A stretch of 56,941 nt of DNA, filler included, from Dugesia japonica (GCA_001938525.1; 5 parts of 5 records of this genome joined end to end with filler, not necessarily neighbours in it); one strand, 5' to 3'; positions 43,573-48,173 are shown, numbered from the whole stretch's first letter. Notes: generated by a model not told the origin, from the sequence alone. Translations and numbers: made by a program.

Positions 43573-44587
43573 GTTTGAATTGCGGTTTGACCAGCTATAA
43601 GTTGTAGTAAAACAACAAAAAAAGAAATCATAAGAGTAGGTGCAACAAACAAATCAGGGATTGGGAACACAATAAATTCAATTATACACTGTGGACTTAT
43701 CATCGCTGACATATTTAATAACAGAACTGTTAGGCTAGAACAAATAATTCAAACAAATAATATCATAGTTGAAATGAGATCGCGATCAAAACAAAAAACA
43801 ATTTATTAAAATAACAAATTGTGAATGATGAATTTGGATAATTACAATAAATAATAAATTAAGTTAGAATAATGAGGAATAACAATATTGACAAGAGAGA
43901 ACAAATAAAAGATCGAAAATGAAGCTGGGAGGGAAATTTTGGACGGAAATACTTAAGGGAAAAGCAGAATATATATTTTATTTATAAATATATGAATATT
44001 ATAACAGTAGTCGATATGGAAAATTTAAACAATTTTTAAATAAAAAATAAAAAGTATTTATTTAGGAGACAAGAAATTAAACAAGAATAAAATTTATAAT
44101 AAGTATTATAAATATGAGAACCGACAGAAGTATTATTATTATTATTATCATGGTAGAATAACAATTGCTATTGTTGAGAAATAAAATATTATATAAATAT
44201 TATATATAATAAGAATAATTCGCAGTATAATTATAGTAATTAAAATAACAGTATAATCATTATTCAAATTATAGATATAATTATTGCGACAAGAAAGATT
44301 ATTAAATTAAATCATTATTGTTGTTATTATTATTATTATGTCTGTTGGGCTTTCACCTCAGTTGGTATTAGAAAAAAAGTGGCTGGGGAAAAATCAGCCC
44401 TCAGGGAACCCTTTCAAGAATTTATCTAATGTCCCTAATTAGATTATCAGCATAGAGCGGTTGACTCCCACCACTTACTTGGAGTACGCACTCGCATACC
44501 TTTGGTTCGGGTTCACTATTTTCCCCATACTTTAAGTTAAACAAACAAGTTAATAATAAATTATTGTGAAGATTTATTTCTTTTTAA

Positions 44588-44947
44588 TTACATGAAATTT
44601 AAAGCACCTGCGTCTAACCACTGGGTTGGCTCCGCAGACAAGAATCCCAAAGCGACTTTATCGTCTTCACTATTCCAGCATGTCCAAGTCTCTTGTTCGA
44701 GTCAACTGAAAAGATCAGCAAAATATTGTTCTAGGAACTCAATTTTATGGGCGAGTATTTGTTTGGATTGCTCTGCCAGTTCACCCTGTTTCTTCACAAT
44801 AGTATCCAATTTCTTTATTAGTTGGTTTTGCTGAGTCAGATAACACAACAAGACTCTCATTTTGCCGCTTAATGTGCCTTTCTAAAAGGAGTTTTTGTAT
44901 AAGTCGATGGCACCTATGTAAACTGGTGAGCAACTGAATTCGTGGAA
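44588..44947 (-). pseudogene. Cassette segment D, copy 2 (frameshift and one stop)
   Basis: Phase-1 acceptor ttcattttag|tt; PRIQLLTSLHRCHRLIQKLLLERHIKRQNE...KKQGELAEQSKQIL...QWLDAGALNFM*, then AATAAA. Confidence 0.75.
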
Positions 44948-45107
44948 CTAAAATGAATAATAACTATTAAAGCAGAAGGTAACCTGAGCAATTTAAAATT
45001 CAGTTAACTAATAAATGTGATCATAACATAATGAAATAACACAAGACAAATCAGATCAAACTCAATAGGACTTTATTTATAATTCATTGCGATAGGAGTA
45101 TAGGAAG

Positions 45108-45465
45108 TCATGATCGCGACGTTTGGGTCGTCTTGTCGATCATCAGTGATTCTAAAGGCATTCGTTTCCTTAATTCAAGGATATTGCTGACCAGTTTATT
45201 TTTTCGGTCATGGAGGGACCAGATGATATCGGCAAAAGATTCAATTTGGCTTTCCAAAGCCGTTCTTGAACATGCGAGGCTTTGGCTTTTTTACGAAAGG
45301 CGATACATTTATTACTGTATCGCTTCACTTTACTAGCAGCAGTGGCAGTGTCAGCCTCCCAGCGCCGATTAGCAAGACGGTAGAGATCCCAAGACATTTC
45401 TGTGTCTTCACTACTTTCCCGGACTTTCTTCGTCGGAGCGACCAAGCGATTAAGAAATGATTTTA
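45108..45465 (-). pseudogene. Cassette segment C, copy 2 (one frameshift)
   Basis: Phase-1 acceptor gtttctag|ta; LNRLVAPTKKVRESSEDTEMSW...ADIIWSLHDRKNKLVSNILELRKRMPLE; AATAAA downstream. Confidence 0.75.
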
Positions 45466-45650
45466 CTAGAAACGATATTAAATTAATAATTAGTTTGAAA
45501 GTCAAGTCAGTTAAATATTAGTGACCAAGGTCTGTAAAATTAATTTATGGTGGGGTTAAACCAATAAACAAAACAAATTAAATAATTAAATAAAAAATAC
45601 ATCGTTTGGAGTAAAAATATTTTAGCAACATAAAACATCGAACACAATAT

Positions 45651-46096
45651 TTATGAAGGAAGTTTCTCATTCTTGGGTAACTCGACGTTTTCATCACTTT
45701 CACCACTCGAATTATTCCGGACGCTTCAGAGTGTATCACTAATTAGACCTCCAAACCCTTTTGGAGTGTGAACAGGTTCAAGAGGAGAAGGTGTGTTTTC
45801 CGTCCAAGCCCGTTCATAAACCAGAATACCATTCACGTATTTCGTGAATATCATTCCGACAGAAAAAGTAACTCGACTGCGATCAGGGCCAGTCTAGTGG
45901 TAATATGCCTGTCGATCCGTGGCGTCTATAAGCCTTTCTTCATAAGCAACCCTAGCGGACAAGTTGGACCGCTCTACAAAAACCTCACCATCACGGTTAT
46001 AGGGGTTTAAGTACTTTTTGAATATCATTCGTCCAGTGTCCCTGTCTTGATTAACTTCCCATTTATATTCCATTAGCTGTAACAATAGTCGGATAA
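45651..46096 (-). pseudogene. Cassette segment B, copy 2 (two premature stops)
   Basis: Phase-1 acceptor gtcaatctag|tt; NPYNRD motif; H*TGP aligns with NWNGP of copy 1. Confidence 0.7.
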
Positions 46097-46196
46097 CTAG
46101 ATTGACAATGAAATGATTTGATAATAAATGGACAATGAAGAAAAACTGAATTAATTACAATGACGAGCACATTTATTAATGAAAAATTAAAAGAGA

Positions 46197-46394
46197 TCAG
46201 AGTTCCAGGTCTAGATCAACTTGGTTGGGGTTAGACAGAGGAAAATGTTCTCTAAAACAAATGAGGTCCGTCTCATCTGAGTATAAAACTAATGTGGCGG
46301 CTAAGATATGCCCAATCAACTGTCTCCTGCGGGTCCGTTCTCGCTCTTGTCGAATGTACCTTAATGTTCTTGTTAGAATGTCGGACATTCTCAA
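46197..46394 (-). CDS. Cassette segment A, copy 2
   Basis: RRRQLIGHILAATLVLYSDETDLICFREHFPL vs PRKQLIAHILFPILIEHSDETDLSCFQEMFPL; AATAAA downstream. Confidence 0.7.
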   Translation of the reverse strand: MRMSDILTRTLRYIRQERERTRRRQLIGHILAATLVLYSDETDLICFREHFPLSNPNQVDLDLEL

Positions 46395-48173
46395 CGAAGG
46401 ATCAGTTTTCTAATTAATAAGAATTTTTTTTAGAGGTAATATAATAATTTAAAGTCTATAAGAATAATTCTATCCGGACATGAGGGGTAGTGGAAAGTTA
46501 CCCCCATACATTAATGCATCTCTACACGGCAATTAATCCGGCCCAAAAAGATATAAGATATAAAGCCTTCTTTATTTGAATAAAAGTGGAATCATAACCA
46601 TAATTTCAACAATCGTGTTTATAACCATAGTAATAATAAGTACATTACTAGGAAGGACGATAATAAATTAGTAGCGATTACTCAGGATAATAACTGATCA
46701 TACTTACAATCAATTTAATGAATAGCTATATAGATATTGCTGATAATCACATTAATAACATTTATAACCATTGACAGCAATTGAATTATTGTGTTAATCA
46801 CACATATCATGATGGTAATTCCCGACAGAGGTGGAAAAATAGTCGATGTTAAATTTGTTATGATATTTTTTAACGACCGAAAAACAAAAAATATCCTGCA
46901 AAATTATCAAGAATACCCTGCCCCGAAATCCGAGTATGTGAGTGGATGTCATTCCTTGTTAATCATTATGCTACTATCGTTGTTTTATTGACAGGTAGAA
47001 TTTAATGACACCTTCTTCGGATCTACTTTATTTGTACTAAATATTAAACTGGTATATATAATCATGAATACTGCCAGTTCTGAAATTCTTGGGTGACTCA
47101 GACAAGATATTGGACATGTTGAGATCTGAATAACAACCAACACAAAACAGACATCACACGCACAAATAATAACACGTACTCTACCCATAAACATGCATAA
47201 TCAATAATCAACTCATCAGTCAAAATCAACATTCGATATTCGTTTAAATTCAACAGCGAGCAGTGTCCATGAAGAATCAATATTCAATAATTGTTTGACA
47301 ATATTATTTTATTCAATGTCGATAACTGAACTTCATTATTCATCACTTTAATATTTCAATTTTATTTTATTTTTGAATTAATCTGTAATTATTTCAAGTT
47401 TAATTTATTTTCTAAATTATTCAATCTATGTATTTAGTTGTTTCAATCGATTTTTCTTAAAAAAATAAAATGTACAGACTAATTTGAGTGCTGATTTAAC
47501 ACTTGGAAAAGGAAATTTTGTTTTTAATTTTGGTTTACATGTGTAATTTTTTAAAGAAATTAATTTATTTTTGTTTTAATACATTGGTGTGCGTGTATGC
47601 ACCCTGAACAGATTTAGTATAAATACTGATCCGTTTCAGGAATTATTTAGACAACTTTGATCAGTTAGCATCCAACCTCTGGACGGCATCGCTAACTTGA
47701 TTTAAAATTAGCTAATAGGTTCTGACATATTTTATTNGTTATATACCAAAAATAAATTTTTCAAAGGTATTAATCCTTTATTTATATAAGGAGATTACAC
47801 GAATATGGCTATATTTATATTGTTGTTGCGTTTTTAGGGTTTGGTGTTTTAAAATTCTATCTTTGAACTCGTTGATCTCGCTTCTAGTATTTAGTATTTT
47901 ATTTACCTGTCTAGGGGCATACACAAAAACCACAAGTATTTATGTCACCTATGTGACATGCCCCTTTTCCCACGGGTTCAGTGCGACTTTGTGGTATCGC
48001 GTCTTATTCATAAATCGGTGAACCCTGACCGTAACAATTTAACACGCTCAGTAAGAACATAACTTATTACTACCATTCTACTTCTTATAGTTTTTTATCA
48101 TCTACTAAAAATTTTTAACAACAAAATAATAATACTTCATTTACAATTTATAACATTTATTTTAGACACAATA

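What the first reader, a model, noticed from the sequence alone, without database searches (positions are those of the whole stretch)
44340..47000. Second, independently decayed copy of the cassette allows reconstruction of the ancestral proteins
Seen: disabling mutations differ between copies. Segment C has TAG in copy 1 where copy 2 has TGG; segment B has TAG in copy 2 where copy 1 has TGG; segment D is 360 nt in both but lacks 2 nt at different places. Copy 2 segment B has an internal stretch missing in copy 1. Inference: these are separate insertions of two already diverged functional lineages, not a segmental duplication. A candidate phase-1 leader (ATG TAT GGG G|gtaact, minus strand ~46510-46496) lies upstream of A. 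Plus-strand micro-intron signals at ~5271-5302 and ~46938-46994 hint at a divergently transcribed partner gene.
Basis: partly seen in the sequence, partly recalled or inferred. Interest (0 to 1): 0.7.

Follow-up and report, generated by a model that had tools for sequence, protein, structure and literature searches.

The report
Decayed six-gene arrays of mobile element
Two old, separately broken copies of a very abundant repeat, likely a jumping element of a flatworm, carry the same row of six small unnamed genes that were kept under selection for their proteins and are likely switched on one at a time by alternative RNA splicing, some probably getting the first letter of their start codon from the splice.

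Summary
The core observation holds. No break is shared. Over 361 codon pairs, dN/dS is 0.12, synonymous sites are near saturation, and spacers and flanks do not align, so this is not a segmental duplication. A DNA run lays 3,174 contigs on copy 2: a high-copy repeat. ORFs follow an acceptor AG, and 6 of 8 A-D stops are followed by AATAAA (background 18.5%), which suggests alternative last exons. The proposed leader has no counterpart in copy 1. TG follows three copy-1 acceptors, slightly favouring a splice-made A|TG start. No RNA junction was seen. The plus-strand partner gene is not significant. The LTR-end and target-duplication tests are inconclusive, so 'solo LTR of a Burro-like element' is unproven. 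The proteins have two unnamed relatives among 1.84 billion and no family or fold. The scan probably noted this family before on other DNA (e1-9268182, e1-9389716, e1-9225201). Ancestral reconstruction was referred.

The parts
46197..46388 (-). Copy 2 ORF A, 63 aa, own Met, unbroken; basic N-terminal helix, predicted helical
   Evidence: 47% identical to P0002 and to copy 1; pN 0.35, pS 0.83
45651..46073 (-). Copy 2 ORF B, own Met just after an acceptor, two internal stops, line-specific insert
   Evidence: relative P0001 E 5e-12
45108..45465 (-). Copy 2 ORF C, phase-1 acceptor, one frame break; basic stretch then heptad repeat
   Evidence: dN/dS 0.07; heptad p 0.007 in 3' half
44588..44947 (-). 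Copy 2 ORF D, 360 nt, phase-1 acceptor, no conserved Met near the start, one frame break and one stop
   Evidence: (dN/dS 0.14)
44422..44529 (-). Copy 2 ORF E, phase-0 acceptor candidate, stop at the same place in both copies
   Evidence: (dN/dS 0.17)
44340..44425 (-). Copy 2 ORF F, new here: another frame, overlapping the E stop, phase-1 acceptor candidate, broken three times
   Evidence: (mismatches 5/3/11, dN/dS 0.18; frame continuing E 1.31)
46496..46511 (-).
46560..46830 (+). Triplet-periodic Asn/Asp/His-rich (plus) or Ile/Val-rich (minus) decayed stretch upstream of A; same place in copy 1 (about 4700-4990)
   Evidence: periodicity p 0.004, 0.005, 0.0006; similarity 1 of 60 shuffles on minus, 89 of 200 on plus
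46938..46994 (+). 57-nt intron-like span; partner gene not established
43492..48036 (.). Candidate extent of the copy-2 element (TGT...ACA, 4.5 kb, RUNX-like motifs at both ends); unproven
   Evidence: no matching target duplication for this pair; 20 chance pairs
4263..4442 (-). Copy 1 ORF A (acceptor before 4453; first Met about six codons later than in copy 2 and P0002)
3831..4163 (-). Copy 1 ORF B, TG right after the acceptor, frame break near the 5' end
3223..3570 (-). Copy 1 ORF C, TG right after the acceptor, one stop, one frame break
2726..3085 (-). Copy 1 ORF D, 360 nt, TG right after the acceptor, two frame breaks
2470..2661 (-). Copy 1 ORFs E (to 2555) and F (from 2558); F unbroken

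Best explanation
Both loci are old, separately decayed copies of a high-copy repeat whose six small ORFs evolved under purifying selection, likely insertions of two subfamilies of a mobile element (probably the long terminal repeat or accessory region of a giant Gypsy-like retrotransposon) that likely expressed each ORF as its own spliced, polyadenylated mRNA from one upstream leader. SHOWN: homology, selection on the reading frames, private breaks, no shared flank, high abundance, acceptor AG at the edge of homology in C and D in both copies, AATAAA enrichment after the stops. INFERRED: one promoter upstream of A makes a leader that is spliced to one acceptor; the transcript ends at the next poly(A) signal, giving one protein per mRNA. 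A (both copies) and B (copy 2) have their own Met. D has no conserved Met near its start, and C is conserved upstream of its first Met, so their start must come with the splice. I favour a leader ending in A that completes TG to ATG (about 50%) over a short phase-1 leader peptide (about 30%). C and D are basic and heptad-rich and A is basic and helical, so they are likely nucleic-acid- or protein-binding regulators of the element or its host cell (weak: no family, no fold). Sub-odds: separate insertions 0.9; alternative last exons 0.7; LTR retrotransposon origin 0.5.
For: Codon test: 361 pairs, pS 0.73, pN 0.27, dN/dS 0.12 (bootstrap upper bound 0.21); every ORF below 0.2 or saturated. Spacers no better than shuffles, ORFs z 3-20. 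Flanks unrelated: blastn between the two 14-19 kb neighbourhoods finds only the cassette and one 53-nt hit. DNA run X1: 3,174 contigs laid, 1,621 of them under 90% alike; summed depth 30,648 at E/F and 19,401 in C against 150-190 in spacers, 41-70 upstream, and about 21 for contigs of the locus itself. Listed non-self contigs differ by about 10-16%. 15 contigs are open at the copy-2 C break. AATAAA within 45 nt of 6 of 8 A-D stops against 248 of 1,340 AT-rich windows, p 8e-4. TG follows 3 of 3 Met-less copy-1 acceptors B, C, D against 18 of 235 background acceptor-like sites (p 4e-4, post hoc). At D, 33 contigs holding 930 of 969 depth agree with copy 1. Intact-looking third-lineage proteins P0001 (B) and P0002 (A) start at the copy-2 Met positions. 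Precedent for a splice-made start in an LTR element: springer-subclade env.
Against: No splice junction, poly(A) end or transcript of this locus was seen. X13 laid 111 reads and X16 22 (about a quarter of each run read); none was 99% alike, all were only partly laid, both orientations occur, and no RNA joint was listed. Copy 2 lacks TG at both C and D, and both changes would be silent if the leader ended in G. F follows its acceptor without TG and E looks phase 0, so A|TG does not explain E and F. No conserved donor with A before it was found. No gag or pol adjoins either copy; the two copies' candidate ends are no more alike than chance, and TG..CA plus duplication pairs are common (34 and 20). 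X1 may be the sample the window was built from, and summed depth is no copy number. The host being a planarian is inferred, not shown by my calls.
Confidence: 0.6

Rival explanations
1. Same element and architecture, but a short coding leader with its own ATG and a phase-1 donor is joined to each ORF.
For: B (copy 1), C, D and F are all phase 1; copy-2 B has a second, in-frame phase-1 AG 22 nt upstream; the copy-2 changes after the C and D acceptors would be silent; covers F.
Against: Does not explain TG after three different copy-1 acceptors or its retention at D in 33 contigs. The proposed leader is absent from copy 1 and out of frame with the nearest copy-2 A and B acceptors.
Confidence: 0.2
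2. The array belongs to another kind of mobile or virus-like DNA (Polinton-type, non-autonomous DNA element, or unknown), not an LTR retrotransposon.
For: LTR ends and target duplications were not demonstrated; many small spliced genes with their own poly(A) sites recall DNA-virus transcription units (recalled); a Polinton remnant lies at 34.2-38.1 kb.
Against: No long terminal inverted repeat in either region. The Polinton remnant is about 6 kb from copy 2 and absent at copy 1. No relative in viral contigs for A, B or C.
Confidence: 0.12
3. An operon resolved by spliced-leader trans-splicing, the leader's terminal AUG giving the start.
For: Stop, AATAAA, 50-250 nt AT-rich spacer and AG is operon anatomy (recalled); flatworm leaders end in ATG (PMC12582326 passages); copy-2 A, B and E acceptors are phase 0.
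Against: C and D are phase 1 in both copies and conserved from the first codon, so a terminal AUG would be out of frame.
Confidence: 0.05
4. A host gene cluster copied by segmental duplication.
For: Both copies lie on one scaffold, in the same orientation, 42 kb apart.
Against: Divergence is not uniform, flanks are unshared, and thousands of related contigs exist.
Confidence: 0.03

Closest known systems
Burro/GYPSM1 giant Gypsy-like LTR retrotransposons of planarians (PMC6431247, section 7 read whole)
   Same: Thousands of copies; accessory ORFs; over 30 kb in total with up to 25 kb inside implies LTRs of a few kb, matching a 4.5-kb unit; AT-rich, planarian-like host (inferred).
   Different: The accessory domains described there sit in or beside the polyprotein (BIR, MATH, BCL2, env). 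No array of small spliced ORFs is described in what I read, and no link to gag-pol is shown here.
Drosophila errantivirus env, springer subclade (bioRxiv 10.1101/2023.08.03.551782, two passages)
   Same: The start codon is completed by splicing in an LTR element; sister subclades use a short leader peptide instead, the same two options as here.
   Different: The split there is AU|G for one env gene; here it would be A|UG for several small non-env ORFs, each with its own poly(A) signal, and it is untested.
Accessory genes of complex retroviruses and foamy-like fish endogenous retroviruses (PMC6431247 passage; HTLV and foamy details recalled, no call)
   Same: Several small regulatory ORFs reached by alternative acceptors from one leader.
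   Different: Those share one 3' end in the LTR (recalled); here most ORFs have their own poly(A) signal. No sequence similarity found.

Membership tests
Gypsy/Burro LTR retrotransposon (solo LTR) | TG...CA ends | tested here: inconclusive
   Candidates 43492/48036 and 2176/6734 (both about 4.55 kb), but 20 and 34 chance pairs, and the ends are not alike between copies
Gypsy/Burro LTR retrotransposon (solo LTR) | 4-6 bp target-site duplication | tested here: inconclusive
   Copy 1 candidate 4 of 5 match; copy 2 candidate pair has none; chance pairs common
Gypsy/Burro LTR retrotransposon (solo LTR) | Occurs as paired direct repeats around gag-pol with primer site and polypurine tract | not testable with these tools
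   No genome held; no gag-pol beside either copy in the window
Gypsy/Burro LTR retrotransposon (solo LTR) | High-copy, interspersed, several subfamilies | tested here: met
   3,174 contigs over four identity bands; unrelated flanks
Segmental duplication | Uniform divergence over coding and spacer DNA | tested here: not met
Segmental duplication | Shared flanking host DNA | tested here: not met
Polinton/Maverick | Long terminal inverted repeats and linkage to capsid, integrase, ATPase genes | tested here: inconclusive
   No long inverted repeat in either region; remnant 6 kb from copy 2 only; both copies could be fragments
Flatworm SL-trans-spliced operon | Met-less ORFs in phase 0 with the leader's terminal AUG | tested here: not met
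   C and D phase 1 in both copies; fits only copy-2 A, B, E
Splice-assembled start codon (springer env type) | Junction reads that create the ATG | tested here: inconclusive
   No RNA joint listed among 133 partly laid raw reads; DNA pattern only
Microbial RNase Sa/T1 family (ORF B) | Similarity over the catalytic domain | tested here: not met
   E 0.064, 30 of 97 residues, one short motif; not among the listed Foldseek rows of a poor model

The most novel reading that the evidence does not exclude
A family of giant flatworm retrotransposons carries inside its LTR a self-contained six-gene unit: one leader is spliced to alternative last exons, each with its own poly(A) site, and splicing itself builds the start codon (A|TG) of several genes. 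Every solo LTR would then be a portable cassette of regulators, scattered in over a thousand copies.
Probability: 0.25. Interest if true: 0.75.

Novelty: new variant of a known kind. Interest (0 to 1): 0.5.

Why it matters
If the reading holds, a large share of this animal's repeat DNA encodes six unnamed small proteins kept under selection across long-diverged subfamilies, by a gene layout (shared leader, alternative last exons, splice-gated starts) that I did not find described for invertebrate LTR elements in my searches. One planarian retrotransposon gene is already reported to protect stem cells (PMC13465017, passages citing another study), so further element-borne regulators are testable candidates in regeneration. 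The second copy itself is an ordinary fossil; its worth is the clean proof of selection and the sixth ORF.

Tried and rejected
No whole genome is held, so no copy survey, empty-site or paired-LTR test was possible. 'No RNA holder listed' for the stretch. Pfam: nothing near cut-off for any ORF. Word-index protein searches: C none, B only P0001 of 107 candidates, D none of 27; only near lengths were searched, so fused forms are not excluded. The HMMER search of 1.84 billion proteins had A, B and part of D in frame in both copies, not C, E or F: 2 hits. Viral contigs: 0 of 24, 54 and 47 candidate stretches. Metagenomes: 0 of 61; 1 of 174, which I first took for a third copy but is a 9-residue chance match in the shadow frame of an unrelated membrane-protein ORF (L001), dropped. 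The Atlas gave no answer. AlphaFold models are poor (pLDDT 50 and 58); fold searches gave nothing (best E 0.03; best Z 3.6). C and D are not detectably paralogous. A hairpin at the E/F overlap looked compensatory but folds no better than shuffles (z -1.0 to 0.9). No Rfam or tRNA hit. Papers: eight searches showed no description of this array in the listings or passages read; four peptide motifs hit 0 papers. The 2018 genome paper that named Burro is not held, and I read no supplements; its supplement and repeat library may already describe these ORFs. No complex prediction was sent.

Full report
Setting. The window is AT-rich (16-39% GC per kb) animal DNA with short introns and many transposon remnants. 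No genome is held. The holder runs are all 'organism A'. That it is a planarian is my inference, from composition, intron size and earlier scan notes, not a result of my calls.

Observation. The two loci align as GC-richer blocks (40-47%) between AT-rich spacers (16-27%). I count five breaks inside copy-1 ORFs B-D and eight in copy-2 ORFs B-F; none is shared. The extra stretch is missing from both copy 1 and P0001, so it is probably a gain in the copy-2 line.

Selection. I compared gap-free codon pairs only, leaving out codons at gaps and, for the rates, at stops. A-E: 361 pairs, mismatches 114/88/201 by position, pS 0.73, pN 0.27, dN/dS 0.12; the two shifted frames give 1.0 and 1.7 with 24-35 stops per copy against 1-2. 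Protein identity runs from 45% (B) to 67% (E). Past the stop that ends E in both copies, conservation continues in another frame: 26 codons, mismatches 5/3/11, dN/dS 0.18, against 1.31 in the frame continuing E. This is a sixth ORF, F. The four spacers and the downstream DNA score like shuffles (z -1.3 to 1.3); the 600 nt upstream score z 3.4, probably from shared triplet periodicity. Flanks are unrelated; the few short tblastx rows outside the cassette are scattered 13-36 residue pieces linked statistically to it.

Abundance and age. DNA run X1 laid 3,174 contigs on 44345-47150 at 80% or more: 117 at 99% and above, 383, 1,053, and 1,621 under 90%. Summed depth peaks in E/F (30,648) and C (19,401), is 150-190 in two spacers and 41-70 upstream of A; contigs of the locus itself have about 21. 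The tool warns that this is no copy number, and X1 may be the source sample, but the order of magnitude points to over a thousand related copies, with coding blocks conserved between subfamilies. Listed non-self contigs differ by about 10-16%, so this copy is old. At the C break 15 contigs are open, at the D break 1.

Anatomy. In C and D the acceptor AG lies in the same alignment column in both copies and homology starts right behind it; branch-point-like motifs lie 21-30 nt upstream in all four. AATAAA follows 6 of 8 A-D stops within 45 nt (background 248 of 1,340; p 8e-4); copy-1 C and copy-2 B lack it. This fits alternative last exons better than a multi-exon gene. A has its own Met, as does copy-2 B, at the positions where P0002 and P0001 begin. 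C is conserved for about 20 codons before its first Met and D has no conserved Met near its start, so both need a start from the splice. Copy-1 B, C and D all begin with TG (background 18 of 235), and at D 33 contigs with 930 of 969 depth agree with copy 1. Against it: copy 2 lacks TG at C and D, F lacks it in both copies, E looks phase 0, and no conserved donor was found. A phase-1 leader peptide remains a real rival. A flatworm spliced leader ends in ATG (PMC12582326, passages) and cannot start C or D.

The leader exists at 46511-46501 but has no counterpart in copy 1, and too few relatives cover it to test. Short GT..AG spans are common (17 of 24 GTRAGT sites), and plus-strand similarity is within chance (16 of 200 and 89 of 200 shuffles).

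Expression. X13 and X16 laid 111 and 22 raw reads, none 99% alike and all partial, in both orientations, with no joint listed; X9 (RNA only by guess) laid 74 contigs, 4 of them 99% alike. Divergent relatives are thus in RNA at a low level; this locus is not shown to be transcribed, and splicing is untested.

Proteins. Two unnamed singletons among 1.84 billion representatives: P0001 (94 aa, E 5e-12, ORF B) and P0002 (60 aa, E 5e-6, ORF A). No family, structure or fold. C has a basic stretch followed by heptads (p 0.02 and 0.007 for two pieces, 0.22 for the third), D is borderline (p 0.06). A regulatory, binding role is an inference from these features alone.

Kind of element. Note e1-9268182 read a 4.4-kb element with five or six small genes as a solo LTR; its motif matches ORF A by eye, so it is probably the same family, although sequence look-ups of the notes found nothing. 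In this window both copies have candidate TGT...ACA ends about 4.55 kb apart, but chance pairs are many, target duplications are imperfect or absent, and the ends are not alike. I put the LTR origin at even odds. Burro elements fit by abundance, size and taste for accessory genes (PMC6431247, section 7 whole; PMC11410931, PMC8532177, PMC13524379, PMC13465017, passages only). Splice-made starts are known from springer env (bioRxiv 10.1101/2023.08.03.551782, two passages). The Burro paper itself and all supplements were not seen and may bear on novelty.

Verdict. Real, selected, independently decayed copies of an abundant six-ORF mobile cassette. The architecture is unusual, but its RNA side and its parent element are unshown, and the scan's repeat notes are not independent support. 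Interest 0.5; new variant of a known kind.

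Noticed in passing
window 34224-38058 (+): Decayed Polinton/adintovirus-like remnant: double-jelly-roll capsid (weak Pfam), a phospholipase A2-like domain (PF08398, 33.2 bits, above cut-off) in one frame with an integrase-like sequence (integrase read by eye), A32-like ATPase.
   Followed up: partly
window 317-2105 and 24080-25506: Two RT-bearing repeats, Penelope-like by eye, with inverted terminal pieces; one abuts the 3' side of copy 1 and may have cut it.
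   Followed up: no
window 53076-56735 (+), 23121-23931 (-), 21217-21606 (-): Gypsy-like RT/integrase remnants and a mariner-type HTH fragment.
   Followed up: no
window 11848-12567 (+): Open 240-codon ORF with no Pfam hit; not searched further.
   Followed up: partly
window 48830-52250 (+): Host WD40 gene with introns of about 45-55 nt, flanking copy 2 only.
   Followed up: no
window 43545-43586 and 47929-47995: 5 of the window's 25 ACC[AG]CA (RUNX-like, label recalled) motifs sit at the two candidate ends of the copy-2 element.
   Followed up: partly
window 46896-46937 and 5214-5255 (+): A 13-codon match (7 identical) ends at a GT in both copies, just before the intron-like spans; reached by 16 of 200 shuffles, so only a lead for a plus-strand gene.
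   Followed up: partly
window 44422-44460: Relatives fall into two classes differing by one base between the end of E and the start of F (loose ends of X1 and X9 against X16, read by eye); this argues against a fixed E-to-F frameshift.
   Followed up: partly
window 43241-43342: About 100-nt palindrome, MITE-like.
   Followed up: no
window 31450-32505 (+) and 17418-17954 (-): Coiled-coil-like ORF pieces and a Ser/Asn-rich ORF without a family.
   Followed up: no
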